From: Candidatus Sulfotelmatobacter sp.
GTDB taxonomy: Bacteria; Acidobacteriota; Terriglobia; Terriglobales; Acidobacteriaceae
Reading direction: 5' to 3'
DNA length: 58,483 bases
Assembly: GCA_030039195.1 (NCBI GenBank)
Contig: JASHQK010000509.1
Coordinates: forward strand, 1 to 58,483
How positions within the stretch are numbered: position 1 is the first letter of the stretch; each line of letters begins with the position of its first letter. This document shows, piece after piece, positions 14,278-35,719 of this stretch. The translations under genes and the position numbers were made by a program. The notes under the pieces were generated by a model. It was not told the DNA's origin, ran no database searches, and saw nothing but the letters and a program-made list of their open reading frames with translations.

Positions 14278-14283
14278 CCCGTT

Positions 14284-14338
14284 GCTGGCGTCCCCACGCC
14301 AGCCAGATTTGCCGGGCCGCAGCCTAGCCCTGCGGCCC
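14284..14338 (-). other. Two GC-rich hairpins between the cupredoxin gene and ctaC (possible processing/attenuation structure)
   Basis: GCTGGCG-TCCCCA-CGCCAGC (14284-14303) and GGGCCGCA-N9-TGCGGCCC (14314-14338). Confidence 0.35.
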
Positions 14339-14362
14339 TACCAAGCCTTCAGACGATAACTC

Positions 14363-15100
14363 CTACTTTGCTTTGAATGTGAAATCCGCAGTGGCGGGTT
14401 TTCCTTCCGCAACCGTCACCTTTTGCGTTTGAGTTCCGTACGTTTCGTGCCACGCCGTCAGCGTGTATGTTCCCGGAGGTACATTTTCGAGTGTGAAAGC
14501 ACCGTTACCATCGCTGACCCCGTTTGGCCCCTTCACAACCGCGATAAAGGCATGCATCCAGGGATGGACATTGCACTTTACGGGAATCATTTCTTCCGCG
14601 GACCAGGTCACGTCGATTGCTGGTGCACCGACAATCTGAGACTTGTTAAATGCGGTGTTGCCACCCCCTGGCTTTGGGTCGGGGTGAATATTGTGCATGG
14701 TCTTGTCGTCGTTCACAATCGACAGGTGCTGGCCCGGATTCACAGCCACAACATGTGGAACATATTGGCAGCCCTTCTGCGCGAAGGTTACCGGCTGGGA
14801 GGCCACCGGGATTGGAGCGCTCAAGCCTTGGGAAATGTAAACCACAACATTCGCCAGAGCGCCGTTCGCTCCGACGACAACGTTCTCGCCGGCTGGTGAC
14901 GGCCCAGTGTGAGTTTGGGCGCAGGAAGGGTCCTTCGACATATCGATCGGCTTCTGGTGAGGAGCTTGGCCATCTAACTTAACGGTCCCGGCGATCTTTC
15001 CGGTCGCCGCCGCCCCCACAGCCGGCGTCAACCGAAACAAACCCGCGGCTGCCACCAGCAACGCAAGTGACACAGCCGCAACTCTGTAGTGAGCTTTCAT
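14363..15100 (-). CDS. Secreted amicyanin-like type-1 copper (cupredoxin) protein with CarboxypepD_reg-like beta-sandwich
   Basis: Signal peptide. His in MHNIH plus KCNVHPWM (C-x2-H-x2-M, as in the amicyanin CTPHPFM loop). C-terminal GNGAFTLENVPPGTYTLTAWHE. Paralog of 27381-27983. Confidence 0.7.
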   Translation of the reverse strand: MKAHYRVAAVSLALLVAAAGLFRLTPAVGAAATGKIAGTVKLDGQAPHQKPIDMSKDPSCAQTHTGPSPAGENVVVGANGALANVVVYISQGLSAPIPVASQPVTFAQKGCQYVPHVVAVNPGQHLSIVNDDKTMHNIHPDPKPGGGNTAFNKSQIVGAPAIDVTWSAEEMIPVKCNVHPWMHAFIAVVKGPNGVSDGNGAFTLENVPPGTYTLTAWHETYGTQTQKVTVAEGKPATADFTFKAK

Positions 15101-15199: not shown

Positions 15200-15226
15200 T
15201 GTGATAGTAGTCACAGATCAGTGTGA
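15200..15226. promoter_or_regulatory. Tripartite CRP/FNR-family-type site TGTGA-TAGTAG-TCACA-GATCAG-TGTGA upstream of the cupredoxin/aa3 oxidase operon
   Basis: Perfect TGTGA-N6-TCACA plus a third half-site, 100-126 nt upstream of the start at 15100. Same 27-bp architecture at 56913-56939, 29590-29616 and 29732-29758. Confidence 0.55.
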
Positions 15227-15395
15227 TTCTAGGCACAAGACGTTTGATTACTTACTCTGGATCTCAAGGCTTCTTAGCCGCACAGAGAGGAAGAGAGGGT
15301 GCACGACAGCCGAGCTGGTTTCTACACCCGAAATCAGCACCGCTGTGGATATTAAGCGGGCCAGTCCGGTCGGATTGTCGGCAATCAGTCGGAAC

Positions 15396-20413: not shown

Positions 20414-21151
20414 TCAATTCTTCGAATAATGAGGCTCGCTATTTCGTGAGGGCGGATCGGCCACAGCGCGGATGTATGAGATCAGCGCCTGGATGTCGGT
20501 TTTGCTGAGGGTGTTTCCCCATGCCGGCATCAGGGCTGACTTATTGAGCGCCGGTCCACCGTAAGTGATGATCGCAGTGAGGTCCGCATCGGTCATTTTA
20601 TTCAGCGTGTCGCCCTCAGTGAATGGATGCGGCTTGACCTCCAGGTTGTCGTAGTTCGACACGCGCTCCACCGTTGATTCGGGATTATGGCAGCGATCAC
20701 AGTACTGATCGTTGAAACGGCGGCCGAGTGTCTGCTGATACCCGAGCGCGATTTCCTGGAGGGTGAGCTCGACTCTTTTATGGGATTTGTCGAAGGTAAA
20801 AGCGGTGAGCTGATAACGGCCTGCCATGCCCCCGAGAGACACGTTCGTAGTGAATTGGCCGCTGGAGTCGGTCAGTCCATACGCAGGATCGAATGTGACT
20901 CCGGGTGCGGCTTCGAGCTCGACCAGTGCCCCCGCGATTCCGTTGTTTTGATCGTCGTTCACTTGCACAACCACAGGCTGCGGCAACAGGCTGCCGGTCT
21001 GCGCCATCTGCTTGCCGCCGCTCGATTCCACGATGGCAGAGCCAAATACCGTAGGCTTGGGCAATGGCGCGGCGGCATTTTTATGCGAGCACGATGTCGC
21101 GAGAGAGGCCGCGATGATCGCGGCGAGCAAGCTCCAGGAGTAACGAGTCAT
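20414..21151 (-). CDS. Lipoprotein: Ig-like domain fused to monohaem class-I cytochrome c
   Basis: Start MTRYSW (ATGA overlap with the octahaem stop at 21148-21151). Lipobox LATSC. YCDRCH haem site and MPAW Met ligand region. Confidence 0.75.
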   Translation of the reverse strand: MTRYSWSLLAAIIAASLATSCSHKNAAAPLPKPTVFGSAIVESSGGKQMAQTGSLLPQPVVVQVNDDQNNGIAGALVELEAAPGVTFDPAYGLTDSSGQFTTNVSLGGMAGRYQLTAFTFDKSHKRVELTLQEIALGYQQTLGRRFNDQYCDRCHNPESTVERVSNYDNLEVKPHPFTEGDTLNKMTDADLTAIITYGGPALNKSALMPAWGNTLSKTDIQALISYIRAVADPPSRNSEPHYSKN

Positions 21152-23190
21152 TTCTTTCGAGCCCCCTGTTTTTCTCCTTTTTGGGAGATCAGGAATGCAG
21201 TGAGCGCGTGAGCGTCTTCCTCGCTCATGGCGCGGTTGGGTTCGATTGTGCCTGGCCTGAGAGCCTGGGGGTTTTTCATCCACGCGTAAATCCACGCCGC
21301 GGTGAGCCGCGAGCCGACATGGGTGAGCGTCGGGCCGATGTAGCCCTTGTCAGCCTTTGTGTCGACGATGTGGCAGCCTTGGCAGGAATATTTTCCATAG
21401 AAGAGCTGCTTGCCGAGTTCGATCTGCCCCTGCGAATAGCCGGTCAGCGGCATCGAGTCACGATCGATTGCGGGACTTTGATAAACGGTCATCATGTAAT
21501 CGGCGAGCTCGCTCGTCTCGGCGTCCGTCAGGTTGAAGCGCGGCATGCGCCGGATCAATGCCGGGCGCAACGTGTTCGGATTTTTCAGGAAATCCACGAG
21601 CCATTGCCGTTGCACCGAACTGCCCTCCCAGGTGAGATCAGGCGCCATGTCGCCGCCGTGGCCGTTGATGCGATGGCAACTGAAGCAGGCGAGATCGGTC
21701 ATGAGCTTGCCCGCTTTGCCGGCAGGCTGGTAATCCGACTCGGGCACAGCTGGAACTGTAAACGATGGCGGCAACGTCTTCGAGCGTTCATTCAACGCGA
21801 GCAGCGCGGTCGTGAGCGCATCAATTTGCGCCGGTGTGAAGGTGTACTGTGGCATCTTCAGTCCCGGCGAAAATGCCCGCGGCTCCTTGATCTTCCCGGC
21901 GATGTAATCCGGAAGCGTGTGCGGCATTCCGGGCAGGAAGAGCAGTTGCGTGATGGGCTTGCTCCCGATGCGGCTTAGTTCGGGAGCAAAGTTTTCCGGC
22001 TTCTTGATGCCCGCAATTTCGTGGCACGACGCGCAACCATAATCCGACACCAGGCGCTTGCCATGCGCGATCTGGTCGGGTGTTCCCTGATCGAGATGGA
22101 CATTGCTCAGGAGGTCGGAGTCACTCTTTGCCTCGAGAAATCCAGCCAGGGTCGCGACCTGAGCGTCGTTGAAGCGATAGTGCGGCATCGCGGTCCCGGG
22201 GTCATATGTGCGCGGATTCTTCAGCCAGCCCTGCAACCACTCTGGTTTCACCTTGCTGCCGATCCGCGTCAGTTCCGGACCCACGTCGCCGCCGACTACA
22301 TTTCCCGCTGCATTCTGCACGGCGTGGCAAGAAGCGCAGAAGGATTCTCCGTAAAGGCTAGGGCCGGCGGTCGGATCGGAGGACACTTTCGTAGAGACTG
22401 TCACCGAATCTCCCGTAACCGGTGTGCTGTTGGCGATTAGAAAGGACGACATGTCGCGAGCATCGCCGTCGCTGAGCTTGAAATTCGGCATCGTTGAGGT
22501 CGCCGCGTAAGCTTGCGGATCTTTCAACCAGGCATAAATCCATTCGCGCGTGGTCTTGTCGGCAATGTGCGAGAGCGACGGCGGATCGTCGGTTGCCTTC
22601 ATCGTCGTACCGTCAGGCAACTTCACGGAGTGGCAGTTCACGCAGCCATAACGGGCGAGCATGGTGCGTCCTTGATTCAGAACCGGAGTGCCCATCAGCG
22701 AATTGCGGTGACATTCCCCGCACGAAGATTCGATGTACTTTGCCGGAAGGATCGGCTGCTCCCACGCCAGGGTGCTGTTGTGCGCTTCGGAGACGGTGGT
22801 CGCGGCGCCCTGTCCACGATGACAAACCGTGCAGCCGAAGTCATCGAGCTTGTGCGGAATCACAGGATGCGGCCGGAACGGCTGCGTGGAAACGTCAGTG
22901 AGGCTGACTTCTTTCAGCGCGACGTGGCAACTGGTGCAGCGGTCGACCACACCCAGATCCGGCAGCCAGATCTGTTGGATTCCACCCTTGAAATGTCGCT
23001 GCAGCGTGTTCGCTTCGCTGCGGTTGCGAATCATCTTCAGATAGCCGTGCTGGTAATGGCGCCACTCGCTGAAATGATTCTTGGCCGGAGCGATGGCCAG
23101 CGAGACGAGGAAGATCAGGCTGACCACGCCAAAAGCGCGAACGCCGTCGCCGAAGAGCGTTTGCCAAAGCAACCCGAAGTTTGCTTTCAT
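21148..23190 (-). CDS. Membrane-anchored octahaem cytochrome c
   Basis: N-terminal TM. Eight CXXCH: CTSCH, CTVCH, CGECH, CVNCH, CASCH, CASCH, CFSCH, CQGCH. Confidence 0.85.
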   Translation of the reverse strand: MKANFGLLWQTLFGDGVRAFGVVSLIFLVSLAIAPAKNHFSEWRHYQHGYLKMIRNRSEANTLQRHFKGGIQQIWLPDLGVVDRCTSCHVALKEVSLTDVSTQPFRPHPVIPHKLDDFGCTVCHRGQGAATTVSEAHNSTLAWEQPILPAKYIESSCGECHRNSLMGTPVLNQGRTMLARYGCVNCHSVKLPDGTTMKATDDPPSLSHIADKTTREWIYAWLKDPQAYAATSTMPNFKLSDGDARDMSSFLIANSTPVTGDSVTVSTKVSSDPTAGPSLYGESFCASCHAVQNAAGNVVGGDVGPELTRIGSKVKPEWLQGWLKNPRTYDPGTAMPHYRFNDAQVATLAGFLEAKSDSDLLSNVHLDQGTPDQIAHGKRLVSDYGCASCHEIAGIKKPENFAPELSRIGSKPITQLLFLPGMPHTLPDYIAGKIKEPRAFSPGLKMPQYTFTPAQIDALTTALLALNERSKTLPPSFTVPAVPESDYQPAGKAGKLMTDLACFSCHRINGHGGDMAPDLTWEGSSVQRQWLVDFLKNPNTLRPALIRRMPRFNLTDAETSELADYMMTVYQSPAIDRDSMPLTGYSQGQIELGKQLFYGKYSCQGCHIVDTKADKGYIGPTLTHVGSRLTAAWIYAWMKNPQALRPGTIEPNRAMSEEDAHALTAFLISQKGEKQGARKK

Positions 23191-23209: not shown

Positions 23210-23917
23210 TTATGATCCCTGCCAAGGCCAGATCCAGGACCAGCCCGGCCCGCGGAAGAATGTGCCCACGGCGGTGAGCACGACCAACTCGAATAAGAAC
23301 CATGTCATGATCCAGTAAGAAAGCGGTCTTGTCGCCAGATAGCAGCGAAAGGCTGAAGAAGATCTCGGCGAACTCTGCGATGCGACGAGCATCAGCGCGG
23401 CCATGATGAGCGTCGGAACTAAGGCCACGATCACATGAAACCACCCGAGAAAAATCGAGAGCACGACCGAGACGAGATAGACCACGCGCAATCGCCGCTC
23501 GCGGTCTTTGAGAAAGAACCCATCCGCTTCGATATTGACCTTGAAGTAGGGAATAACGACTAATGCCATCACCACGAGTCCCGGGACTAATACGCCGGCG
23601 ACGACCGGCGGAAAGTAGTGCAGCATCTCCTGCAGGCCGAGAAAATACCAGGGCGCCTTTGCTGGATTGGGCGTATGCGAAGGATCGGCCAGGCCTTCCA
23701 GCGGAGCGTTGAACATAAGTGCGATCCAGACGAGCACTGTTGACAACGTCATGATTGCCACGGCCGCGCGGAACAGCACTTCGGGAAACGTCTGAACTTG
23801 CTCTTCGGTTTCCGCTTTCACCTGCGCCGAAGTGCGTCTGGTAACAAAAACTATGCGGCGCGGAGAGCGCTTTGCGTTGGAGTCGACGGCGGCGACGAAG
23901 TCTTTCGCATCAGCCAT
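23210..23917 (-). CDS. Cytochrome b C-terminal-domain protein (b6f subunit IV-like)
   Basis: [21 protein letters not shown] (PEWY-type motif). Start MADAKD at 23917 preceded by AAGGAGGG; 8-nt overlap with the cyt b stop. Confidence 0.8.
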
Positions 23918-24764
23918 GGTTAATCGCCCTCCTTGGTCCCAACTGGGGTGCCCCACTTCTCGCTACTTTTGCGGGAAGTGGAAGCACGTCTGATAGTTCG
24001 TGTTCGGTCTGCGCTCGCGCCACAGTCGGTTCGCTGGAATGGGAATACAGACCCCCATCTTTGCGAATGCGCCAGAAATGAATCGCAATGAAAAACATGG
24101 CCGTCAAGGGCAGGATCATGCAGTGCAACACATAGAAGCGCAGCAGCGCGTTTGCATTCACGGCATGGCCGCCCAGCAAAAGAAAGCGAATCTTGTCTCC
24201 CATCAGCGGAACCGCCGAGGCGATGTTCGAGCCGACCGTGATCGCCCAGTAGGCCAGTTGATCCCAGGGCAGCAGGTATCCCGTGTAACTGAGCAGCAGC
24301 GTGACAAGAAGAAGGACGACGCCGATCACCCAATTAAATTCGCGCGGAGTTCGATAAGCTCCGCGGTAAAAAACTTTGAACATGTGGGCGAAGACGAGAA
24401 ATACCATAGCGTGCGCGGACCAACGGTGCAGATTCCGGAGAAACAATCCCGAAGAGACGACGAATTGGAGATCTTTCGTGTCGGCATACGCCTGCGGAAC
24501 GGAGGGATGGTAATAAAGCATGAGCGGAATTCCAGTCGCGACCAGCAACAGGAAAGTGCCGAGAGTCAGGGTGCCGAGATACCAGGTCGCGCTGAAACCG
24601 AGCATGCGCGTGCGCACCTTGGTCGAGAACAGGTGCAGGAACACGTTCTGCTGGATCGCGAGCGAGCGCTTGAGCGTGCTCGATCCGGTGCCGCTGCGGA
24701 AGATCGAGCGCCAGACTCGGGTCTCGCGCAGATCGTCAAAATATTGGTCCACAGTTTTCGCCAT
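23910..24764 (-). CDS. Cytochrome b (b6-like N-terminal four-helix part)
   Basis: [28 protein letters not shown], conserved His pairs. Confidence 0.9.
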
Positions 24765-24765
24765 G

Positions 24766-25272
24766 TCAGATCCTCACGAAGGAATCTCGCGCGAGCGGAG
24801 GCACGTCGGTTGAGCGATCCACGAGTAGATCGCCGTCGTCATTGAGCCAGATGCGTTTCCAGGGAAGCGGCTTGGGCGCGGGGCCTTCAATCTTGTCTCC
24901 CGGCTTGCGTCCGTCTTGCTGGAAAGCGAAAAACTTGCTGCCATGGCATGGGCACGCGATGATGCCTTGCTCAGGCTTCCACGCCGTCAGGCAGCCGAGA
25001 TGCGTGCAGACTGCGCTCAGAGAGAAGAAACCTTCTTGTGAGTGAATGATGTAAATACCCGTTGTGACGTCGAGCGTGACTGAGTCGAGCGGATAGCGAT
25101 CCGGCTTGCCCGCATTGACCACGGGCGACGGCTCGTACAGGACGTTGGGCTCAAGATACTGGTAAGCAAATGCCGCTGTGCCGGCGGCAGCGATGCCCAG
25201 AGAACCGAGTCCGAGTTTTGCGAAGAACTGCCGGCGGCTAACGTCGTCTGTCTTTTTTGTCTCTTCTGCCAT
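24766..25272 (-). CDS. Rieske 2Fe-2S subunit with Tat signal
   Basis: [15 protein letters not shown] twin-arginine motif. CTHLGC...CPCHGSKF cluster ligands. An alternative upstream start at 25317 is possible. Confidence 0.9.
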
Positions 25273-25335
25273 AAAAGCCTTGGGGCCCCACGGTAAATGT
25301 CGCGCGCTTGGCGACATTCAGGGTGGTGATCTGAT

Positions 25336-27303
25336 TTACTTTTGCAATCCCGCGCCGATCGATGCGACCGAGATCAAGCCGGTCGGCTCAGCGGGAAGCA
25401 GGTTGTACGACTCCATCGTGATGGTGCCAACTGGACAACGCATGGCACACAAGCCGCAGCGAATGCAGCGCGTTTCATCCTTTAACATCGCCGATCCTGT
25501 CACGATTCCGAGTTCGTCTGCGGCGACTTCGTCGAGCTCCACGCCGAAGCACTCCTGGTTCTCGCTAATGTGCTTGACGGTTTCCAGATCGAAGGCAATC
25601 CGATCCAGCGAAACGAGCTCAAGACATTTTTCCGGGCAAACATCGACGCAGCCGCCGCAGAGGATGCACATGCTGCCATCTTCCGGAACACCTTCGAAGA
25701 CCGTATTGACCCAGCAGTGCAGGCAGCGCTGTGCCTCGGCTATGGCCGACTTCGCGTCGTAACCGATCTCGACTTCGGTCACGCCGGTGCGGCGCTCCAG
25801 AGGAAGCATCCGAACCGGTTGACGGTTGAGATCGAGGTACCCGAGTGGCATGGCATGCCGTTTGAGTAGCTCGACTTCGATAACCGGCTCCGGATGCTTA
25901 CCGCCGCTCAGATACTCGTCAATTCCGACAGCAGCACGCTTGCCGTCGCCAACGCTGTCGATAATCAAGCGCGGTCCAAACACGCAATCACCGCCGGCGA
26001 AAATTCCGGGGGTGGAAGTCATCAGCGTTTGTGGATTAACGGCGATCAGGCCGCGCGGAGAAAGTTCGACTTTGTCTTCCGGAGTGAAAAAGTCGAGGCG
26101 CGGTGCTTGGCCGATCGCCATGATGATCGTGTCACAGTTGATCTGGCTCTCGCTACCTTCATAAAAAGCGGGATTGAAACGCCGGTTCTGGTCGAAGACC
26201 CACTTCGTCTTGAGAGTCTCGAGAGCGCTGACTTTTCCGTCCTTACCCACGATTCGCTTCGGCCCGAATCCGGGATAAATGATGATGCCCTCTTCTTCTG
26301 CTTCCTCGATTTCTTCGAGTGCGGCGGGCATTTCGTTGCGCCGTTCCAGGCAAACAAGATTCACCTCGCGCGCGCCCATGCGCAACGCGGAGAGCGAGAT
26401 GTCAACCATCTCCTTGGTCGCGACCGCGGAAACGTTCTCAGCCGAGGGCTCGACATCCTGAATTCCGCTCGCGTGCTGGCGAACGACTTCGCGAGCCGCG
26501 GAACGCGCAACGTCCATGGCAACATTGCCGCCGCCGATCACGATGACTTTCTTCCCGATCGTGAACTTGTAGCCGAGATTCACGTTCAGCAGAAAATCGA
26601 TTCCTTTATGCACTCCGTCGAGATCTACGCCAGGAATGCTGAGATCGCGGCTGCGGTGCGCGCCGACCGCGATCAGCACCGCGTCAAAGCCCTGCCGGCG
26701 CAATTCGGAGATGGTGAAGTCGCGGCCTGCAGCATGATTCAGCTTGAGCGTGATATCTCCGGTCTCGAGAATCTCTCGGACTTGCGCTTCCACGACATCT
26801 CTCGGCAAGCGATATTCGGGAATGCCGAGGTACAACATGCCGCCCGCTACGGGAGCGGCTTCAAAGAGCGTGACCGAATAGCCCATCAACGCCAGATCAT
26901 GCGCCGCTGAAAGCCCGACCGGACCCGCTCCCACGACTGCGACCTTATATGGAAGTTTCGCCTGTGAACGCCTTTCCGTGATGCTGATGGGATGCTTCGA
27001 TTCCGGCCCGAATTGCTCGGTCAGGAAGCGCTTGAGGGCGCGAATGGAGATCGGCTTGTCGATCTCTCCACGGCGGCAAGCGGTCTCGCATGGATGCGCA
27101 CACACTCGGCCGCAGATACTCGCCAGCGGATTGGGATCACGCGCCAGGCGATAGGCTTCCTCGAAGCGTCCTTCGGCAATCAGGCCAACATAGCGCCCGG
27201 CGTTGGTGTGCGCCGGGCAGGCCATCATGCAGGGGAAGTTCGTGTGCAACCAATCCGCGTCGACCTTCTTATCTCGAAACCGTTTCAGCATGGCGTCACT
27301 CAA
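25336..27303 (-). CDS. GltD-like (glutamate synthase small-subunit family) NAD(P)H-dependent FAD/FeS oxidoreductase with C-terminal 2x[4Fe-4S] ferredoxin domain
   Basis: N-terminal Cys clusters (CPAHT..., CGRVCAHPCETAC). Rossmann motifs VAVVGAGPVGLSAA and VIVIGGGNVAMD. C-terminal CILCGGCVDVCP and CIRCGLCAMRCP. Confidence 0.85.
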   Translation of the reverse strand: MSDAMLKRFRDKKVDADWLHTNFPCMMACPAHTNAGRYVGLIAEGRFEEAYRLARDPNPLASICGRVCAHPCETACRRGEIDKPISIRALKRFLTEQFGPESKHPISITERRSQAKLPYKVAVVGAGPVGLSAAHDLALMGYSVTLFEAAPVAGGMLYLGIPEYRLPRDVVEAQVREILETGDITLKLNHAAGRDFTISELRRQGFDAVLIAVGAHRSRDLSIPGVDLDGVHKGIDFLLNVNLGYKFTIGKKVIVIGGGNVAMDVARSAAREVVRQHASGIQDVEPSAENVSAVATKEMVDISLSALRMGAREVNLVCLERRNEMPAALEEIEEAEEEGIIIYPGFGPKRIVGKDGKVSALETLKTKWVFDQNRRFNPAFYEGSESQINCDTIIMAIGQAPRLDFFTPEDKVELSPRGLIAVNPQTLMTSTPGIFAGGDCVFGPRLIIDSVGDGKRAAVGIDEYLSGGKHPEPVIEVELLKRHAMPLGYLDLNRQPVRMLPLERRTGVTEVEIGYDAKSAIAEAQRCLHCWVNTVFEGVPEDGSMCILCGGCVDVCPEKCLELVSLDRIAFDLETVKHISENQECFGVELDEVAADELGIVTGSAMLKDETRCIRCGLCAMRCPVGTITMESYNLLPAEPTGLISVASIGAGLQK

Positions 27304-27380: not shown

Positions 27381-27983
27381 CTACTTCTTCAGAGTGAAAT
27401 CCGCTTTCGTGCTGCCCGAAACGGTTACCGGCTGCGATTGGTCTTTCGCACCTTCGTGCCATACGGTAACTGTGTAACTTCCGTCGGGGACATCTTTGAT
27501 CGTGTAATTGCCGCTATCGTCGGTCTCGGCAAAGTAGGGGGTGGGACTGACGATGATGTATCCCGACATATCAGGGTGCACATTGCAGAAAAGTGGCACG
27601 ACTCCGGCCTTGTCGAACGTGTAGGGACGCTTCTCGCCTTTCGGCCAGGTTCCGAGATTGTGGCCAGCTTTCTTGTCGTTACCGATCGCAGTCCAAAAGA
27701 CGTTGTGCTGCACATTGTCGCTGTTCAGGAACTCAACGGTCGTCCCTTGCTGCACCGCCATAATGTGCGGCACGAACAGCAGTCCCTTTTGATCCATTAC
27801 TGGGTGGTCCTTCGGAGCGGGGAAAGTCTTGCCGGCAATCGCATCTACATAGACGACCGACTTTCCCTTCATACCAGTAACCTTGCCCTCGATGTCTCCT
27901 GCCGATGCCGCGATGCATAATGCACTGATCATCAACATCACAACGCACGCATTTCGTCTCATTTGCCTTGTTCTCCTTTGCAT
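27381..27983 (-). CDS. Secreted amicyanin-like cupredoxin with CarboxypepD_reg-like domain (paralog of 14363-15100)
   Basis: Signal peptide; His in VQHNVFW plus FCNVHPDM (C-x2-H-x2-M); C-terminal DSGNYTIKDVPDGSYTVTVWHE. Confidence 0.7.
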   Translation of the reverse strand: MQRRTRQMRRNACVVMLMISALCIAASAGDIEGKVTGMKGKSVVYVDAIAGKTFPAPKDHPVMDQKGLLFVPHIMAVQQGTTVEFLNSDNVQHNVFWTAIGNDKKAGHNLGTWPKGEKRPYTFDKAGVVPLFCNVHPDMSGYIIVSPTPYFAETDDSGNYTIKDVPDGSYTVTVWHEGAKDQSQPVTVSGSTKADFTLKK

Positions 27984-28009: not shown

Positions 28010-29407
28010 CTAAAAAATGACCTTTGCGTCCAGGTAAATCGTGTTGTTAGAGCTCGCATTGCGGCCCGCGCTGTCGTAATTATTCTGGGCACCGTTGAAG
28101 CGCGTATACGCCGTGTACTGCGCGGCGAGCTGCAGATTCTGCCATGGCCAATAGGAAACGTTTGCGATCAAGCCTGCGCCTCTTGGATCGCCATTGAAAT
28201 TACCGGTCACCGGAGCGGACGGATAGAGAAGGAGGTCAGAAGTGCCAGTGGTATTGAACCAACCCAGCGTCCCCGTATATTTGTTTCCCAAGTGATATTC
28301 GGCATTGGCCATCACCGTGTTCAAACGGTGTGATCCTTGCGACACTAGACCCTGAAAAAGACTACTGAGCAGATCGTTGTTCTCCCGGATGTAGGTCGCC
28401 CGAAAGGATAGAACGTCTGTTCGAAACAGGGTCCTGTCGATCTGCGTGTCCACGCCCCAATCAGTGTAGGAATCCGTCGGAATGCTTGCGCCGGTTGTGG
28501 CGGTGATTTCGTTGGGAGTCGAACGCAGGTGCATGCCATAGGTACCGACTTCATACTGAGTCTTGCCTGTCAGTTCCTGCCATGCAAAACGCCAATAGGG
28601 CGCAACACCGCGAATGTTATGGGTGAAGCCAACTCCTGGATTCGGCTGCGGTCCACCCACATGCTCCGAGCGGTAAACCGCCGCATCCAGGTAGAAATGT
28701 GTGTCCCACATGGCGTAGCCGCCAAATCCCGCGACATCCTGGGCCAAAGGACCGTTAATAATCGCCGCGGCGTTAGGCGTGGGCGCAAAATCGCTAACGA
28801 TCCAAGGGAAACCCCATGCCGGAGTACTGTTCCACAGATCCTCTACACTGGGATTGTTGTTGAGGTCGAGGCCGTAAACCAGTTCTTTGCCTCCCCAAGT
28901 CGTCTTGTTGGCAGCCCGAATATCCGTGTTGTCACTGGTGAAATGATCGTCCCTGGTGTCATAGGTCACTTGGAGGAAGCTTCCGACGTGGCTTGTCCAT
29001 GCCCCGGATAGAAACAGCGATACGTCCTGAGGAAACTCGAAGTTCCCGTTCTGTGTGTTTGTTGAGGGAGTAGTGCTAGTATTTGGCACCGGGGACTTCA
29101 CCGATGTGAACGAAGTCTCAAGCATCACGGACAGCGGCAGCGATGCGAGCAGGTCGAGTGCGGCACGCTTTTTTCCGCCGTCGGCCGTTACGACCTTGGT
29201 CTCGTCGGCTCGATCCACATAACCCAGCAGCTTGAATCTGCGCCCGGCTGGATTGAGTTCCGGAGGAGCGTAGTGACAGCCGCTACATGGCAAACCTGTC
29301 TGTCGTGCATAGCTCGGCACCGCCTCAACCTTGGGCGGACTCATCACGCCCAACACAGGAACTGCAACAACCAGAAAAATCCCAAGTGTTTTCATTTGTA
29401 TCCTCAT
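28010..29407 (-). CDS. Outer-membrane beta-barrel protein with N-terminal monohaem domain (Cyc2-like fused cytochrome-porin)
   Basis: Signal peptide, then PSYARQTGLPCSGCHYAPPELNPAGRRFKLLGY (single CXXCH at residues 41-45, followed by P-x-L). About 400 aa of alternating beta-strand-like sequence rich in G/Y/T/N. C-terminal ...YLDAKVIF ends in the aromatic OMP signature. Confidence 0.6.
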   Translation of the reverse strand: MRIQMKTLGIFLVVAVPVLGVMSPPKVEAVPSYARQTGLPCSGCHYAPPELNPAGRRFKLLGYVDRADETKVVTADGGKKRAALDLLASLPLSVMLETSFTSVKSPVPNTSTTPSTNTQNGNFEFPQDVSLFLSGAWTSHVGSFLQVTYDTRDDHFTSDNTDIRAANKTTWGGKELVYGLDLNNNPSVEDLWNSTPAWGFPWIVSDFAPTPNAAAIINGPLAQDVAGFGGYAMWDTHFYLDAAVYRSEHVGGPQPNPGVGFTHNIRGVAPYWRFAWQELTGKTQYEVGTYGMHLRSTPNEITATTGASIPTDSYTDWGVDTQIDRTLFRTDVLSFRATYIRENNDLLSSLFQGLVSQGSHRLNTVMANAEYHLGNKYTGTLGWFNTTGTSDLLLYPSAPVTGNFNGDPRGAGLIANVSYWPWQNLQLAAQYTAYTRFNGAQNNYDSAGRNASSNNTIYLDAKVIF

Positions 29408-29476: not shown

Positions 29477-29492
29477 TGCGAACGCAGTTCCA
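29477..29492 (-). promoter_or_regulatory. Candidate sigma-54 (-24/-12) promoter for the cyc2-like operon
   Basis: Minus strand reads CTGGAAC-TGCGT-TCGCA, with GG and GC at the canonical 12-nt register. About 70 nt upstream of the ATG at 29407. Confidence 0.35.
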
Positions 29493-29589
29493 GTCATCTA
29501 CGCACAGCATGTAAGGGCGAAAGCGTCGTCACTTGGTCCAAGTGAACGTGATATTAGCGATCACAGGAAAAACTCTGCGACGTGTTGAA

Positions 29590-29616
29590 TCACATTTCGA
29601 CGTGATTTGAATCACA
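29590..29616. promoter_or_regulatory. Tripartite site TCACA-TTTCGA-CGTGA-TTTGAA-TCACA
   Basis: Same 5-6-5-6-5 architecture as 15200-15226 and 56913-56939 (opposite strand reads TGTGA-N6-TCACG-N6-TGTGA). Lies in the divergent cyc2-like/tetrahaem intergenic region. Confidence 0.5.
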
Positions 29617-29731
29617 CTTACGGTGAGAGGGATTAATTATCTCGCAGGCTATAACATTCGAATTTCCATATTGTTGTGCGCCGTGTAATCGTCTAAGGAA
29701 CCTTCCGGCAACAATGAGAGGGCCTAGTGAA

Positions 29732-29758
29732 TCACGGAGGGACGTGATCAAAGTCACG
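29732..29758. promoter_or_regulatory. Tripartite site TCACG-GAGGGA-CGTGA-TCAAAG-TCACG
   Basis: Fourth copy of the 27-bp architecture, 156 nt upstream of the tetrahaem cytochrome ATG. Confidence 0.5.
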
Positions 29759-29913
29759 ATTTCATTTTCCCGCGACTTAGACAGTTCTCGCTATTTTCTG
29801 TCGCAAGTTCGCAACAACGAGACATAGGAAGGCAGCCGAGAAAAATTTCCGGCTACTAGTCGTTTTCTGATAGTGACTCCATCTTGGCAGCTCAATACAC
29901 TGGCGTTTTTGTC

Positions 29914-30378
29914 ATGAAGCTGACCTGCACAACGCCACGAAGTCCAGTTCACAAAGGAAAGCTCGCTTCACCTAGCGGAGTATTGAATTGCGGGTGGATC
30001 CTCGCGCTACTGCCAGTACTGCTGTTGGGAAGTGTGCAAGTGGCGGCCGTCGACAGTCGGGGCGTTGAACATCCGGGCAGTATTCATGCGGATGACAATT
30101 GCTCTTCCTGTCACGCGGACAAGTCCAGAGGCAAATCAGTGCACTCGGCCATGGCGCTTCGGTGCACAGTCTGCCATCTGGCGGAGACTCAAGGTGACAT
30201 GACTACTTTGAGTTTGTTCATGCCAAAAACAAAGATCTGCTTTGCCTGCCATGAACAATCCCTGTCCGTACGAGAGCACCGTCCCGTCGCCCGGGGATTG
30301 TGCCTGGACTGTCACGATGCACATAGCAGCAGTCGCCGCAAATTGTTACGACAGCCAACCGATGCTTCCCGTAACTAA
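29914..30378 (+). CDS. Tetrahaem c-type cytochrome (c3/NrfB-like), membrane-anchored or secreted
   Basis: Start MKLTC; hydrophobic segment WILALLPVLLLGSVQVAA; four CXXCH (CSSCH, CTVCH, CFACH, CLDCH). Confidence 0.8.
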   Translation: MKLTCTTPRSPVHKGKLASPSGVLNCGWILALLPVLLLGSVQVAAVDSRGVEHPGSIHADDNCSSCHADKSRGKSVHSAMALRCTVCHLAETQGDMTTLSLFMPKTKICFACHEQSLSVREHRPVARGLCLDCHDAHSSSRRKLLRQPTDASRN

Positions 30379-30972: not shown

Positions 30973-32331
30973 CTAGTCACAAAGACCGTACTCGCGCAGC
31001 TTCCTGTACAAATTCCGCTCGCTGATTCCAAGAATCTTAGCTGCATTTCCGCGATGCCCCTTGCTGGCTTCTAGCGCCATTCGAATGTGAGCGAGTTCCA
31101 CTTCCTGGAGTGTCAGCTGCCGGGAGGCTTCTGAAACGGCCGTTGCCGGTGTCGTCTTTGTATTACGCAGGGAAGCAGGAAGGTGATCGGGTAGAACCTG
31201 AGATCCTTCGCAAAGCACGAGAGCAGCTTCCACCACATGCAGGAGTTCGCGTACGTTGCCTGGCCAGGAGTGTTGTCGGAGCAACTGCAGGGCCGCTTCG
31301 CTAATCCTTTTGTTAGAGCCGAATCGCTCGTTGAGCATGGTCGCGAAGTGTTGGGCCAGAAGAGACACATCATCGCCTCTTGCGCGCAGAGGTGGTATCT
31401 CCACCGTGATGGTGCTGAGGCGGTAGAACAAGTCCTCACGAAAAAGGCCCTGCCGCACCAAGACCGATACATCTCGATTTGTGGCGGCCAGGATGCGGAC
31501 GTCCACTCGAATTTCCCGCGTACTACCGACGTGGCGGAACGTGGAGGTGTCGAGCACGCGCAACAACTTCGTCTGCGTCGCCGGGCTCACCTCTCCGATC
31601 TCATCAAGGAAGATTGTTCCGCCGTTAGCGACTTCGAACAGGCCGGGTTTGGCTCGATCCGCTCCGGTAAACGCACCTCGCTCATGGCCAAACAATTCGC
31701 TTTGCAGCAGGCTCTCCTGCAGCGCGGCGCATTCGACAACTACGAACGGCCTTGACCGGCGAGGACTGCGGGCGTGGATCAACTTGGCGACTCGTTCTTT
31801 GCCCACGCCTGTCTCGCCGATAATAAGCACGGTCGACTCACTTGGGGCAACGCGGTCGATCAGATTGAGCAGACGCCGGAACTCTGGGCTGTCGCCGACG
31901 AAAGAATTGCTCAGATCCGGCGGAGTCAGGCCGCGCTCGAGAATTTTTGTTCTCTGGCGCAGAGATCGCCGCTCGATCGCTCGTTGTATGCGAACCTGAA
32001 GTTCGTCCAGCGGACAAGGCTTCACCACGTAGTCGCAAGCGCCAATGCGAATCGATTCGATGGCCGTGTCGATAGAACCATGTCCGGTGAACATAATCAC
32101 CTCGGTGGAAGCCGCGGCCGCCAGAATGGCTTTTAGCGTCTCCAGCCCGCCTATACCAGGTAAGCGCAGGTCCAGCAGCACGACTTCGGGTTCCAGCACT
32201 TCCACTCGCTCGATCGCTTCCTCACCCGTGCTCGCCGTGGAGGTTTCGTAACCGAGTCGACTCAATTCATCCGCCATCACTTGCCGGAAGGCAGAATCGT
32301 CATCGACCACGAGGAGAGACGGTGGTTTCAT
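30973..32331 (-). CDS. Sigma-54-dependent response regulator (NtrC family: REC + AAA+ + Fis-type HTH)
   Basis: Receiver domain (LLVVDDD...DLRLPG), Walker A GETGVGKE, GAFTGA sigma-54 contact motif, C-terminal HTH (GNAAKILGISERNLYRKL). Confidence 0.92.
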   Translation of the reverse strand: MKPPSLLVVDDDSAFRQVMADELSRLGYETSTASTGEEAIERVEVLEPEVVLLDLRLPGIGGLETLKAILAAAASTEVIMFTGHGSIDTAIESIRIGACDYVVKPCPLDELQVRIQRAIERRSLRQRTKILERGLTPPDLSNSFVGDSPEFRRLLNLIDRVAPSESTVLIIGETGVGKERVAKLIHARSPRRSRPFVVVECAALQESLLQSELFGHERGAFTGADRAKPGLFEVANGGTIFLDEIGEVSPATQTKLLRVLDTSTFRHVGSTREIRVDVRILAATNRDVSVLVRQGLFREDLFYRLSTITVEIPPLRARGDDVSLLAQHFATMLNERFGSNKRISEAALQLLRQHSWPGNVRELLHVVEAALVLCEGSQVLPDHLPASLRNTKTTPATAVSEASRQLTLQEVELAHIRMALEASKGHRGNAAKILGISERNLYRKLREYGLCD

Positions 32332-34737: not shown

Positions 34738-35202
34738 ATGACACATGAACTTCTAAATGGTCTCTCTTCCGCCGAGGGCGAGCAGGTTTTGAAGCTCGGC
34801 CACAGAGTGATCGTCCCCAGCGAAGCAACGCTATTCCAGCTGGGAGATCAGGCCGATCGGCTCTTCCTGGTTGAACGCGGACGAATCAAGCTGACATTGC
34901 CAATGCAGGTGCGTAAGCGAGAACAGGATGTTTTTGTGGAGGAGAGAGGTCCCGGCCAGACCGTCGGCTGGTCAGCCTTGATTCCGCCTTATCGATTTAC
35001 CCTCACCGCGACCGCCGTTTTGCTCGACGCAGAAGTGATCGCCTTCCCACGGGAGGCGCTGCTCAGGTACTTTGCAGCCAATCCAGGAGCGGGACACAAG
35101 ATTGCTTTCAATCTTGCGGTCGTGATTGGACATCGCCTGCAACTGTTCCAGACGATGTGGCTGCGCGAGATGCAGCGCACGGTGGAAGTACGTTCCGCGT
35201 GA
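34738..35202 (+). CDS. Stand-alone cyclic-nucleotide-binding (cNMP/CAP effector) domain protein, no HTH
   Basis: LFQLGDQADRLFLVERGRIKL...GPGQTVGWSALI...; 154 aa, too short to include a DNA-binding domain. Confidence 0.8.
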   Translation: MTHELLNGLSSAEGEQVLKLGHRVIVPSEATLFQLGDQADRLFLVERGRIKLTLPMQVRKREQDVFVEERGPGQTVGWSALIPPYRFTLTATAVLLDAEVIAFPREALLRYFAANPGAGHKIAFNLAVVIGHRLQLFQTMWLREMQRTVEVRSA

Positions 35203-35218: not shown

Positions 35219-35719
35219 ATGCAAACGGTAAGCGAGACAACCCCCTCCGGCAGCAAACAACAAGGTGAACGCCTCGACCATTTCAACAGTACACGCCGCC
35301 GCGTCATTGAGTATTTTCTCGGTGGTGGCTTGTTGGCTTCGTTCGTTTCATTTCTCTACCCGGTGTTGCGCTACCTCATACCTCCTGCGGTAGCTGATCT
35401 TGGCGGTGACGAAATCGTCGCCGCCAAGATCGGCGAGCTAAAGCCGAATTCCGGCAAGATATTCCGATTCGGCAACCATCCTGGCTTGTTGATCCTAAAC
35501 AGCGATGGTACCTATCGTGCACTTTCCGCTACTTGTACCCACCTTGGCTGCACCGTGCAGTATCGCGCCGATCTTCGCCAGATCTGGTGTGCCTGCCACA
35601 ACGGAATCTACGATCTGAACGGTCGCAATGTTTCCGGTCCTCCGCCCAGACCGCTGGATGTGTTCGATGTCCACGCGCGCGGAGATGAGATTGTCGTCAG
35701 CAGAAAGCGGGAGGCGTGA
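35219..35719 (+). CDS. Rieske 2Fe-2S subunit (b6f/PetC-like)
   Basis: N-terminal TM; [10 protein letters not shown]...CACHNGIYD. Confidence 0.9.

What the first reader, a model, noticed from the sequence alone, without database searches (positions are those of the whole stretch)
28010..29407. Cyc2-like fused monohaem cytochrome-porin
The 465-aa product has four features in order. First a signal peptide. Then PSYARQTGLPCSGCHYAPPELNPAGRRFKLLGY (nt 29255-29317), which holds a single CXXCH within 45 residues of the N-terminus. This motif is preceded by a (F/Y)ARQT-type motif and followed by P-x-L, the pattern I recall as diagnostic for Cyc2 iron oxidases. About 400 residues of beta-barrel-like sequence follow. 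The protein ends in ...YLDAKVIF with a terminal Phe, as in outer-membrane proteins. Cyc2 is the candidate outer-membrane Fe(II) oxidase of Acidithiobacillus, Zetaproteobacteria and Gallionellaceae. A copy heading a respiratory operon in an Acidobacteria-like genome would imply lithotrophic or extracellular electron exchange capacity.
Basis: partly seen in the sequence, partly recalled or inferred. Interest (0 to 1): 0.8.

Follow-up and report, generated by a model that had tools for sequence, protein, structure and literature searches.

The report
Cyc2-family haem porin heading respiratory operon
The gene encodes an outer-membrane pore fused to a single-haem cytochrome, of the same family as the Cyc2 iron oxidases; the family is already known in soil Acidobacteriota, and iron oxidation by this member is plausible but unproven.

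Summary
Window 28010-29407 (-) encodes a 461-465 aa protein with a signal peptide, a single CXXCH made of its only two cysteines, and the Cyc2 consensus with correct spacing (AVPSYARQT-x3-CSGCH-x3-PEL, F->Y). A 16-strand barrel follows (AlphaFold2 pLDDT 77, pTM 0.79) and the protein ends in Phe.

It is full-length homologous (30-36% identity, E to 1e-70) to proteobacterial proteins carrying the literal motif. Profile-profile homology to FARKY-type Cyc2 clusters is 98-99% probable over 341-365 columns. FeGenie HMMs and the three biochemically validated Cyc2 proteins could not be obtained, so that test is indirect.

The gene heads a conserved operon: cupredoxin, NfnB/GltD-like NAD(P) flavoprotein, Rieske, split cytochrome b, octahaem c, lipoprotein cytochrome c. 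The same cupredoxin family sits beside Cyc2-like genes in many phyla, either with this Rieske/cyt b module or with rus-like Cyc1-CoxBA modules.

Most likely function: electron exchange between dissolved Fe(II) and a periplasmic blue-copper protein, as in Acidithiobacillus. The direction of flow and the substrate are inferred, not shown. Cyc2 genes in Acidobacteriota MAGs are already reported, so this is a new member of a known kind. The conserved module is the more interesting lead.

The parts
28010..29407 (-). Cyc2-family fused monohaem cytochrome-porin gene (465 aa from the first ATG; the likelier start is nt 29395, giving 461 aa; stop codon 28010-28012)
   Evidence: ORF. More than 3,300 homologues. 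Full-length tblastn hits to proteobacterial proteins with the literal Cyc2 motif. Only window ORF hit by Cyc2-type HMMs.
29321..29407 (-). Signal peptide (residues 1-29, cleavage inferred after VEA)
   Evidence: Sequence inspection. Modelled as a low-confidence N-terminal helix. The haem His then falls at mature position 16, as reported for A. ferrooxidans Cyc2. No signal-peptide predictor was available.
29255..29323 (-). Cytochrome motif AVPSYARQT-GLP-CSGCH-YAP-PEL (Cyc2 consensus, single haem c site)
   Evidence: A25, P27, Q32, T33, C37, C40, H41, P45 and L47 (461-aa numbering) are invariant in an 80-sequence alignment of two branches.
28013..29134 (-). 16-strand beta-barrel porin domain ending in a C-terminal Phe
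   Evidence: AlphaFold2 model with 16 strands between residues 88 and 460, pLDDT 77, pTM 0.79. Foldseek matches 16-strand porins (OmpT, OmpF, OprO) at E 1e-9 to 1e-7.
27381..27983 (-). Periplasmic blue-copper (amicyanin-like cupredoxin) protein with a C-terminal CarboxypepD_reg Ig-like domain; inferred redox partner of the porin haem
   Evidence: Pfam Copper-bind and CarboxypepD_reg. PDB amicyanin hits. His plus C-x2-H-x2-M ligand pattern. Homologues lie next to Cyc2-like genes in many phyla.
25336..27303 (-). Cytoplasmic NfnB/GltD-like NAD(P)-binding FAD/Fe-S flavoprotein with a C-terminal 2x[4Fe-4S] domain
   Evidence: Pfam and NCBIfam. PDB hits to NfnA, NfnI and GltD at E 1e-54 to 1e-91. 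No signal peptide.
24766..25317 (-). Rieske 2Fe-2S subunit (Tat motif SRRQFF; CTHLGC...CPCHGS)
23210..24764 (-). Split cytochrome b: N-terminal b6-like part (23910-24764) and C-terminal subunit-IV-like part (23210-23956)
   Evidence: Pfam Cytochrome_B and Cytochrom_B_C.
21148..23190 (-). Membrane-anchored octahaem cytochrome c (8 CXXCH)
20414..21295 (-). Big_1 plus monohaem cytochrome c, probable lipoprotein (LATSC lipobox; likelier start near nt 21154)
29601..29616 (.). CRP-type palindrome (TGTGA-N6-TCACA, 1 mismatch) about 200 nt upstream of the gene; further TGTGAT/ATCACG half-sites lie in 29550-29760
   Evidence: TGTGAT-N4-ATCACA lies at similar distances upstream of orthologues in L127, L128 and L130.
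14363..15100 (-). Paralogous cupredoxin/CarboxypepD_reg protein heading the aa3-type oxidase operon (8726-15100); possible downhill branch point
   Evidence: 32% identical to the operon's cupredoxin (E 3e-23) and 58% identical to the protein between Cyc1 and CoxB in the Cyc2-headed operon of L007. Assigning it to the same pathway is inference.

Best explanation
The gene encodes a Cyc2-family outer-membrane protein: a 16-strand porin with a small single-haem c-type cytochrome domain fused to its N-terminus. By analogy with the three characterised Cyc2 proteins, dissolved Fe(II) enters or contacts the pore and gives an electron to the haem. The haem then reduces the periplasmic blue-copper protein encoded immediately downstream, which plays the role rusticyanin plays in Acidithiobacillus. 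From there electrons reach an unusual Rieske/cytochrome b complex that carries an octahaem cytochrome c and a cytoplasmic NfnB-like NAD(P) flavoprotein. I read this complex as an 'uphill' branch making quinol or NAD(P)H. Via a paralogous cupredoxin, electrons probably also reach the nearby aa3-type oxidase (the 'downhill' branch). Shown here: the sequence features, the 16-strand fold prediction, homology to the Cyc2 superfamily, and conserved gene linkage. Inferred: covalent haem, outer-membrane location, Fe(II) as substrate, the direction of electron flow, and the cupredoxin as direct partner.
For: Motif, spacing, single CXXCH, length and terminal Phe match the published definition. There are 16 strands plus an N-terminal helical haem domain, and Foldseek hits 16-strand porins including OprO 4RJW, the template used for both A. 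ferrooxidans Cyc2 and Cyc2-PV1. Full-length homology at 30-36% identity (E 1e-40 to 1e-70) to Ralstonia, Caballeronia, Paraburkholderia, Methylocystis and Acidiphilium proteins with the literal AxPxFARQT motif; Ralstonia and Burkholderia are genera Keffer et al. say carry Cyc2 homologues. hhalign versus the FARKY-type cluster (which holds the Nitrospira sequence and the best matches of the Leptospirillum and Chlorobiaceae fragments) gives 99.3%, E 3e-20, 341 columns; versus the Zetaproteobacterial family it gives 98.2%, 365 columns. An HMM of the FARKY cluster hits only this ORF among 500 in the window (64 bits, E 4e-19). The operon is conserved at 74-77% porin identity. The same gene order occurs with FARKY-type porins in Eisenbacteria, Planctomycetota, Thermoanaerobaculia and Terriglobia, and without the flavoprotein in Brocadiales. 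31 of 96 FARKY loci have the cupredoxin downstream on the same strand. Locus L007 shows Cyc2-Cyc1-cupredoxin-CoxB-CoxA, like the rus operon. Proteobacterial relatives are followed by a dihaem Cyc1-like cytochrome, and by HiPIP upstream in Caballeronia. CRP-type sites lie upstream of this operon, the aa3 oxidase operon and the NiFe-hydrogenase operon, which suggests co-regulation with aerobic and lithotrophic respiration.
Against: There was no direct comparison with the FeGenie HMMs or with the three validated proteins (A. ferrooxidans Cyc2, Cyc2-PV1 AKN78226, Cyt572). The literal regex PxFAR[QK][TY] that Keffer et al. used as a screen fails at F->Y. Pairwise BLAST to FARKY-type proteins aligns only the N-terminal 60-150 residues. 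Cyc2 homologues occur in organisms not known to oxidise iron (nitrite-oxidising Nitrospira, Mn oxidisers, Ralstonia), and the curators state that function outside well-supported clades is uncertain. No carbon-fixation genes are seen in the window, which instead carries heterotroph-type genes (GH3, citrate synthase, Pta/Ack-like). The Acidithiobacillus chain is described as reversible, so direction cannot be read from the parts list. The haem domain and linker are only moderately confident in the model (pLDDT 43-87 over residues 1-90).
Confidence: 0.5

Rival explanations
1. The same protein and partners work outwards. Quinol is oxidised by the Rieske/cyt b complex, and electrons leave through the octahaem cytochrome, the cupredoxin and the porin haem to soluble or chelated Fe(III) or to humic quinones. 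This outflow could serve as the high-potential sink that lets the NfnB-like subunit make NAD(P)H by bifurcation at the quinol site, as proposed for the anammox Rieske/cyt b complexes.
For: The NfnB/GltD-like subunit belongs to a family that includes bifurcating enzymes. The module also occurs in a Brocadiales MAG and other anaerobe-rich lineages. The A. ferrooxidans Cyc2 chain is described as reversible, with Fe(III) as acceptor under anoxia. Own knowledge: some Acidobacteriota reduce Fe(III), and Kartal et al. 2013 proposed bifurcation for the anammox complexes.
Against: All three biochemically tested Cyc2 proteins were assayed as Fe(II) oxidases. A single haem inside a 16-strand pore can only reach dissolved species. 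Known dedicated metal reducers use multihaem conduits. The operon appears co-regulated with an O2 reductase and an uptake-type hydrogenase.
Confidence: 0.2
2. It is a Cyc2-family redox porin whose physiological substrate is not iron. Candidates are Mn(II), Cu(I), reduced humic or phenolic compounds, or another small diffusible reductant common in acidic soils.
For: Homologues occur in Mn-oxidising Ca. Manganitrophaceae, where a role in Mn(II) oxidation is proposed, and in nitrite oxidisers. They are widespread in heterotrophic soil Proteobacteria. The curators allow for additional functions.
Against: No Cyc2 homologue has yet been shown to use a substrate other than Fe(II). The partner set (blue-copper protein, Cyc1-like cytochromes, HiPIP, aa3 oxidase) mirrors the iron-oxidation chains of Acidithiobacillus.
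Confidence: 0.17
3. It is an ordinary diffusion porin in which the haem has a structural, sensing or detoxifying role unrelated to respiration.
For: The barrel most resembles general porins, and there is no Pfam or NCBIfam family.
Against: The haem motif is invariant across thousands of relatives. The gene is embedded in electron-transfer operons in many phyla.
Confidence: 0.04

Closest known systems
Cyc2 fused cytochrome-porins (A. ferrooxidans Cyc2, M. ferrooxydans Cyc2-PV1, Leptospirillum Cyt572; Keffer et al. 2021, McAllister et al. 2020)
   Same: Signal peptide. Single CXXCH with the haem His at about mature position 16. AxPx(F/Y)AR(Q/K)(T/Y) motif three residues before CXXCH and PxL four residues after. 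About 460-485 aa. Predicted 16-strand OprO/OprP-like barrel. No Pfam family. Followed by periplasmic redox carriers.
   Different: Tyr replaces the consensus Phe. Similarity to the FARKY-type branch is only detectable across the barrel by profile methods. Cluster assignment and any activity are untested. The downstream partner is a cupredoxin plus a Rieske/cyt b-flavoprotein complex, not Cyc1 plus CoxBACD.
Proteobacterial 'cytochrome C'/hypothetical proteins of Ralstonia, Burkholderia, Cupriavidus, Caballeronia, Pandoraea, Rhodanobacteraceae and Acidiphilium (QT-type Cyc2 homologues)
   Same: Full-length homologues (30-36% identity, 92-98% coverage in 14 of 15 hits), with the same motif flavour (ARQT), length and C-terminal aromatic residue.
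   Different: They carry the literal FARQT (FAAQT in Acidiphilium) and are followed by a dihaem Cyc1-like cytochrome and/or preceded by HiPIP. They are not followed by the cupredoxin-Rieske/cyt b module.
A. ferrooxidans rus operon (cyc2-cyc1-cup-coxBACD-rus) and petI operon (uphill bc1 branch)
   Same: An outer-membrane Cyc2 at the head of the operon, a blue-copper carrier, and links to both an aa3 oxidase and a Rieske/cyt b complex. Own knowledge: petI also encodes an NAD(P)-type dehydrogenase, SdrA1.
   Different: Here the Cyc2 gene is fused to the Rieske/cyt b operon rather than the oxidase operon. The copper protein is amicyanin-like with an extra Ig-like domain, not rusticyanin. The bc-type complex has an octahaem c and an NfnB-like subunit.
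Anammox-type Rieske/cytochrome b complexes with an NAD(P) oxidoreductase subunit and multihaem cytochromes (Kartal et al. 2013; own knowledge)
   Same: Rieske, split cytochrome b, multihaem c and a GltD/NfnB-like flavoprotein in one gene cluster. A Brocadiales MAG locus (L111) has Cyc2-like, cupredoxin, Rieske and cyt b in the same order.
   Different: No outer-membrane cytochrome-porin has, to my knowledge, been described as part of those complexes. No sequence comparison with the Kuenenia proteins was possible here.
Porin-cytochrome complexes MtrCAB, MtoAB and PioAB
   Same: Outer-membrane beta-barrel plus c-type haem moving electrons across the outer membrane.
   Different: Those are 26-strand barrels sheathing a separate decahaem protein and can reach solids. 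This is a 16-strand barrel with one fused haem.

Membership tests
Cyc2 fused cytochrome-porin family (Keffer 2021 / McAllister 2020 / FeGenie) | N-terminal signal peptide | tested here: met
   By inspection only: a basic n-region, the hydrophobic stretch LGIFLVVAVPVLGV, and VEA|VP. Modelled as a detached N-terminal helix. No SignalP-type tool was available.
Cyc2 fused cytochrome-porin family (Keffer 2021 / McAllister 2020 / FeGenie) | Exactly one CXXCH haem c site, near the N-terminus | tested here: met
   CSGCH at residues 41-45, the only two Cys in the protein. One CXXCH in 120 of 120 close relatives. The His falls at inferred mature position 16, as in the A. ferrooxidans Cyc2 model.
Cyc2 fused cytochrome-porin family (Keffer 2021 / McAllister 2020 / FeGenie) | Consensus AXPXFAR[Q/K][T/Y] just upstream of CXXCH (said to be unique to Cyc2) | tested here: met
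   AVPSYARQT matches 8 of 9 positions, with the conservative F->Y change, and has the same 3-residue spacing as Ralstonia AVPAFARQT-GMA-CMACH. The literal regex PxFAR[QK][TY] that Keffer et al. used as a filter would miss it. 2 of 120 close relatives and most distant representatives carry F, and Y recurs in independent clusters.
Cyc2 fused cytochrome-porin family (Keffer 2021 / McAllister 2020 / FeGenie) | PXL motif four residues after CXXCH | tested here: met
   CSGCH-YAP-PEL. P45 and L47 are invariant in the 80-sequence alignment.
Cyc2 fused cytochrome-porin family (Keffer 2021 / McAllister 2020 / FeGenie) | Length of at least 365 aa | tested here: met
   461-465 aa.
Cyc2 fused cytochrome-porin family (Keffer 2021 / McAllister 2020 / FeGenie) | 16-strand beta-barrel porin fused C-terminal to the cytochrome domain | tested here: met
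   The AlphaFold2 model (pLDDT 77, pTM 0.79) has 16 strands between residues 88 and 460. Foldseek top hits are 16-strand porins, and OprO 4RJW has TMq 0.46. Barrel closure and haem-domain position were not inspected because no coordinates were accessible.
Cyc2 fused cytochrome-porin family (Keffer 2021 / McAllister 2020 / FeGenie) | Sequence homology to accepted Cyc2 (BLAST <=1e-5 to a cluster representative, or a FeGenie HMM above cutoff) | not testable with these tools
   The FeGenie HMMs and the sequences of A. ferrooxidans Cyc2 (B7JAQ7), Cyc2-PV1 (AKN78226) and Cyt572 could not be obtained. Surrogates were all positive: tblastn E to 1e-70 against proteins with the literal motif; an HMM of the FARKY cluster gives 64 bits and a unique hit; hhalign gives 99.3% over 341 columns and 98.2% over 365 columns.
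Cyc2 fused cytochrome-porin family (Keffer 2021 / McAllister 2020 / FeGenie) | Covalently bound haem, outer-membrane location and Fe(II) oxidation activity | not testable with these tools
   This needs experiments. The only indirect signs are the C-terminal Phe in 120 of 120 relatives and the porin fold.
Porin-cytochrome complexes (MtrAB / MtoAB / PioAB) | 26-strand barrel with a separate decahaem cytochrome partner | tested here: not met
   16 strands and one fused haem. No MtrA-like decahaem gene is adjacent; the downstream octahaem protein is membrane-anchored and belongs to the Rieske/cyt b cluster.
rus-type iron-oxidation operon (cyc2-cyc1-cup-coxBACD-rus) | Cyc2 followed by dihaem Cyc1 and aa3 oxidase genes in one operon | tested here: not met
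   In the window, Cyc2 is followed by a cupredoxin and a Rieske/cyt b complex. The aa3 operon lies about 5 kb beyond the operon's end and is headed by a paralogous cupredoxin. A rus-like order does occur with a FARKY-type porin in Acidobacteriaceae locus L007.

The most novel reading that the evidence does not exclude
The operon is a self-contained trans-envelope 'uphill' module. Extracellular Fe(II) reduces the Cyc2-type porin haem, then a dedicated blue-copper carrier, then a Rieske/cytochrome b complex whose built-in NfnB-like flavoprotein reduces NAD(P)+ directly, bypassing reverse complex I. A paralogous cupredoxin feeds the aa3 oxidase. The module, with interchangeable QT- or FARKY-type porins, is conserved in more than ten phyla (Acidobacteriota, Nitrospirota, Planctomycetota including Brocadiales, Gemmatimonadota, Myxococcota, Bacteroidota and others). 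If this is right, abundant soil and peat Terriglobia would be facultative iron lithotrophs.
Probability: 0.2. Interest if true: 0.75.

Novelty: new member of a known kind. Interest (0 to 1): 0.4.

Why it matters
Cyc2 is the main genetic marker used to infer microbial iron oxidation from metagenomes, but its meaning outside classical iron oxidisers is disputed. This protein belongs to a very large, unnamed branch (786 representatives at 50% clustering and E<=1e-30) that is common in soil Acidobacteriota and Proteobacteria.

The conserved pairing with a blue-copper protein, with either an aa3 oxidase or a Rieske/cyt b-NAD(P) flavoprotein complex, gives these orphan homologues a concrete and testable respiratory context. 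That context parallels the branched Acidithiobacillus chain. If it is functional, iron-driven or other metal-driven electron uptake by dominant peat and soil Acidobacteriota would affect models of iron and carbon cycling at oxic-anoxic interfaces. As it stands, the gene itself is an expected family member and not a surprise.

Tried and rejected
- **Family libraries and PDB by sequence.** Pfam, NCBIfam and PDB sequence searches with the protein gave no significant hit. This is expected, because Cyc2 has no Pfam family.
- **Obtaining canonical Cyc2 sequences.** All attempts failed:
  - the supplements of Keffer 2021 and McAllister 2020 hold no sequences;
  - full-text searches for FARKY/FARQT strings returned unrelated papers;
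  - no cryo-EM or solved structure was found;
  - Yarzabal 2002 is not held;
  - cluster look-ups of diverse representatives gave no organism names.
- **The Mariprofundus protein.** I first took the protein fished by the FARKY DNA pattern (L008) to be Cyc2-PV1. Its M. ferrooxydans PV-1 orthologue is SPV1_10541 (EAU55163.1), not AKN78226, so I treat it as a motif-bearing Zetaproteobacterial paralogue, not as the validated enzyme.
- **Cluster assignment.** I did not assign a Keffer cluster number. The extracted table and the text label the clusters inconsistently, and no tree placement was possible.
- **Sigma-54 promoter.** A sigma-54-type promoter (TGGAAC-N5-TTCGCA, 84 nt upstream of the first ATG at 29407 and 97 nt upstream of the second ATG at 29395) is suggested by the adjacent sigma-54 activator. 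It is not found upstream of the orthologues, so I dropped it as part of the explanation.
- **Other literature searches.** A search on Rieske/cyt b complexes in Acidobacteria and anammox was uninformative. The Tenderiales Uet system contains a cupredoxin but is a different system.
- **Chance ORF.** Rejected on the basis of conservation.
Full report
**Observation.** The minus-strand ORF 28010-29407 exists as described (465 aa). Public gene calls start four codons later, at MKTLG (461 aa). The protein begins with a typical signal sequence ending in VEA|VP. It then reads AVPSYARQT-GLP-CSGCH-YAP-PEL and contains no cysteine other than the two of the CXXCH. It ends in ...YLDAKVIF.

The features are strongly conserved. 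All 120 closest database relatives (73-100% identity, all unnamed, one labelled Ca. Sulfotelmatobacter) have one CXXCH, a terminal Phe and the same motif (YARQT 117, FARQT 2, YARQA 1).

**What defines Cyc2.** Keffer et al. 2021 (PMC8406198) describe Cyc2 as follows:
- a signal peptide;
- one CXXCH;
- the consensus AXPXFAR[Q/K][T/Y] upstream of it (called unique to Cyc2);
- PXL four residues downstream;
- at least 365 aa;
- a predicted 16-strand OprO/OprP-like porin.

Full-length identity between family members is only 15-30%, so the short cytochrome region is the recognisable part. Modelling papers on the A. ferrooxidans protein (485 aa, UniProt B7JAQ7) describe the same modules, no Pfam match, a 16-strand barrel and the haem His at mature residue 16. 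With cleavage after A29, the window protein's H45 is also mature residue 16.

**Homology.** Pfam, NCBIfam and PDB sequence searches are empty. tblastn against annotated plasmids found 15 homologues, 14 of them covering at least 89% of the query, at 29-37% identity and E 1e-39 to 1e-70. They come from Ralstonia megaplasmids, Caballeronia, Paraburkholderia, Methylocystis, Acidiphilium, Ideonella and others. Four of the six I extracted carry the literal motif, for example AVPAFARQTGMACMACHVSFPELTPFGRFFKMTGY, with the spacing seen in the window protein. A profile of these proteins retrieves Ralstonia, Burkholderia, Cupriavidus, Pandoraea and Rhodanobacteraceae proteins annotated only as 'cytochrome C'. 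Ralstonia and Burkholderia are genera that Keffer et al. say carry Cyc2 homologues.

An exhaustive profile search of 1.84 billion representatives gives 5,548 hits at E<=1e-3 and 786 at E<=1e-30. Sixteen of the top 150 were read: fifteen carry the motif and one (P0460) is an N-terminally truncated fragment. The Y variant occurs in four of them.

**Link to the other Cyc2 flavour.** I could not obtain the FeGenie HMMs or the three validated sequences, so I scanned 185,579 species genomes for the DNA pattern of P-x-F-A-R-K-Y-x3-C-x-x-C-H. The expected chance yield of this pattern is below one. The scan hit its 120-locus limit. It returned Mariprofundus, another Zetaproteobacterium, Leptospirillum, Chlorobiaceae, Nitrospira defluvii and many Acidobacteriota, Gemmatimonadota, Bacteroidota and Planctomycetota.
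- Ninety-four of the ORFs are complete, monohaem and 384-676 aa long.
- Pairwise BLAST from the window protein aligns only the first 60-150 residues.
- Profile-profile comparison extends through the barrel. The window's family versus the main FARKY cluster gives 99.3% probability, E 3e-20 and 341 columns. Versus a Zetaproteobacterial family alignment it gives 98.2%, E 3e-14 and 365 columns.
- The Leptospirillum and Chlorobiaceae fragments find their best matches within the FARKY cluster. This agrees with a published network analysis that places Cyc572 among Acidobacteria and Nitrospira homologues.
- HMMs built from the FARKY cluster and from the Zeta family each hit only this ORF among 500 window ORF segments (64 bits, E 4e-19; and 22 bits, E 1e-6).

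One caveat matters here. The Zetaproteobacterial family I recovered corresponds to SPV1_10541 in strain PV-1, not to the validated Cyc2-PV1 (AKN78226). It is therefore a motif-bearing paralogue.

**Structure.** AlphaFold2 on an 80-sequence alignment of both branches gives mean pLDDT 77 and pTM 0.79. The model has a short helical N-terminal domain around the CXXCH, a low-confidence linker, and 16 long strands between residues 88 and 460. Foldseek against the PDB returns 16-strand porins (V. cholerae OmpT, chitoporin, Omp-Pst, OmpF/OmpC) at E 1e-9 to 1e-7. OprO 4RJW, the template cited for Cyc2, has TMq 0.46.

**Context.** The gene heads an eight-gene operon on the minus strand:
1. the Cyc2-like porin;
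2. an amicyanin-like cupredoxin with a C-terminal CarboxypepD_reg domain and a His plus C-x2-H-x2-M copper site;
3. a cytoplasmic NfnB/GltD-like NAD(P) flavoprotein;
4. a Tat-dependent Rieske protein;
5. the N-terminal half of a split cytochrome b;
6. the C-terminal half of that cytochrome b;
7. a membrane-anchored octahaem cytochrome c;
8. a Big_1-cytochrome c lipoprotein.

These assignments rest. The whole operon is conserved in relatives whose porins are 74-77% identical.

Searching all fetched loci with the operon proteins showed that the cupredoxin family accompanies FARKY-type Cyc2-like genes in many phyla. Of 96 loci with room downstream, 31 have it downstream on the same strand, and 13 of those are directly adjacent. 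In Eisenbacteria, Planctomycetota, Thermoanaerobaculia and Terriglobia loci the order Cyc2-cupredoxin-flavoprotein-Rieske-cyt b is the same as in the window, and a Brocadiales locus has that order without the flavoprotein. In Terriglobia locus L099 the partners are 64-75% identical to the window's, yet the porin is FARKY-type. The two porin flavours therefore appear interchangeable.

Where the cupredoxin lies about 1.1 kb downstream, a dihaem cytochrome c intervenes. In Acidobacteriaceae locus L007, CoxB and CoxA follow it, which reproduces the rus-operon logic of Acidithiobacillus. The proteobacterial QT-type genes are instead followed by a dihaem Cyc1-like cytochrome, with HiPIP upstream in Caballeronia.

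The window itself also carries:
- an aa3-type oxidase operon (8726-15100) headed by a paralogous cupredoxin, which is 58% identical to L007's;
- a second Rieske/cyt b-multihaem cluster;
- a NiFe hydrogenase.

These are supported. CRP-type palindromes are enriched (10 found versus 1.6 expected). They lie upstream of the oxidase, Cyc2 and hydrogenase operons, and are conserved upstream of orthologues.

**Mechanism.** The architecture and homology are shown. The rest is inferred. The best-supported reading is that the protein is an outer-membrane redox porin that exchanges electrons between a dissolved extracellular species and the periplasmic blue-copper protein. Fe(II) is the only substrate demonstrated for this family. 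Electrons would then be distributed to a Rieske/cyt b-NAD(P) flavoprotein complex and, probably, to the aa3 oxidase. This parallels the branched Cyc2-rusticyanin chain of A. ferrooxidans.

I put family membership at about 0.9 and Fe(II) oxidation specifically at about 0.45-0.5. Rivals are outward electron flow to Fe(III) or humics (the Acidithiobacillus chain is described as reversible) and a non-iron substrate (homologues occur in Mn and nitrite oxidisers). Keffer et al. themselves caution that function is uncertain for homologues far from the characterised proteins.

**Novelty.** Cyc2 genes in Acidobacteriota MAGs are already reported from FeGenie-type surveys, so the gene is a new member of a known kind. 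In the searchable literature I did not find a description of the conserved Cyc2-cupredoxin-Rieske/cyt b-NfnB module, or of its alternation with a rus-like Cyc1-CoxBA module. That is the more interesting lead, though my literature coverage is limited.

Noticed in passing
window 27381-27983 and 14363-15100; loci L007, L012, L013, L050, L080, L099, L111 and others: A cupredoxin plus CarboxypepD_reg protein family is a recurrent neighbour of Cyc2-like genes across more than ten phyla. It appears in two module types: with an NfnB-like flavoprotein plus Rieske/cyt b, or with a dihaem cytochrome c plus CoxB/CoxA. The window has one paralogue in each context.
   Followed up: partly
L099 (Terriglobia MAG) 2193-7999: This operon is orthologous to the window's (partners 64-75% identical) but is headed by a FARKY-type rather than a QT-type Cyc2-like porin, and it has a second cupredoxin gene upstream of the porin. 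The porin type seems to have been swapped within a conserved operon.
   Followed up: partly
window 15200-15237, 29601-29616, 56913-56928 (also 58024, 58381): CRP-type palindromes TGTGA-N6-TCACA are enriched (10 versus 1.6 expected; 0 of 100 shuffles reach 10). They sit about 100-200 nt upstream of the aa3 oxidase operon, the Cyc2-headed operon and the NiFe-hydrogenase operon. Two cNMP-binding proteins are encoded at 34738-35202 and 44146-44820.
   Followed up: partly
window 29478-29495; 30973-34238: A sigma-54-like promoter (CTGGAACTGCGTTCGCAA, GG-N10-GC) lies upstream of the gene (84 nt from the ATG at 29407, 97 nt from the ATG at 29395), next to a sigma-54 activator/response regulator and a PAS-HAMP histidine kinase. 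The promoter-like site is not found upstream of orthologues in L127, L128 or L130.
   Followed up: partly
window 29884-30378 (+): A divergently transcribed small tetrahaem cytochrome c (paired-CXXCH, DmsE-like) lies upstream of the Cyc2-like gene. It is conserved (99% identity) in same-species contigs L131-L134 but not in L127-L130, which instead have a radical-SAM gene and a multihaem/cytochrome b cluster there.
   Followed up: partly
window 35219-38050 (+): A second Rieske/cytochrome b cluster (Rieske, fused cytochrome b, multihaem c7/c3-type cytochrome) lies directly after a cNMP-binding protein gene.
   Followed up: no
window 53198-56803 (-): A membrane-bound NiFe hydrogenase (small subunit, large subunit, cytochrome b561-type anchor) indicates H2 oxidation capacity. 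The hydrogenase group was not determined.
   Followed up: no
P0261 (M. ferrooxydans PV-1 SPV1_10541, EAU55163.1); L008, L045: Zetaproteobacteria share a well-conserved (55-90% identical) FARKY-motif monohaem porin-cytochrome that is distinct from the validated Cyc2-PV1 (AKN78226). It ends in Leu rather than an aromatic residue. It seems to be a second Cyc2-like paralogue family.
   Followed up: partly
L003 7076-8284 (Caballeronia WP_206366205.1); L006 7277-8362 (Paraburkholderia WP_236721144.1): RefSeq start codons for these 'cytochrome C' genes lie downstream of the CXXCH codons. The annotated proteins therefore lack the signal peptide and haem motif that the upstream in-frame sequence encodes. 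These are probably mis-called starts.
   Followed up: no
L002 (CP084173.1, labelled A. ferrooxidans plasmid) and hit H9 (Acidiphilium cryptum plasmid NC_009469): The two plasmids give the same homologue (identical identity and coverage to the query) with an R->A variant of the motif (FAAQT), flanked by a transposase. The Acidithiobacillus label may reflect an Acidiphilium-derived replicon or contamination.
   Followed up: no
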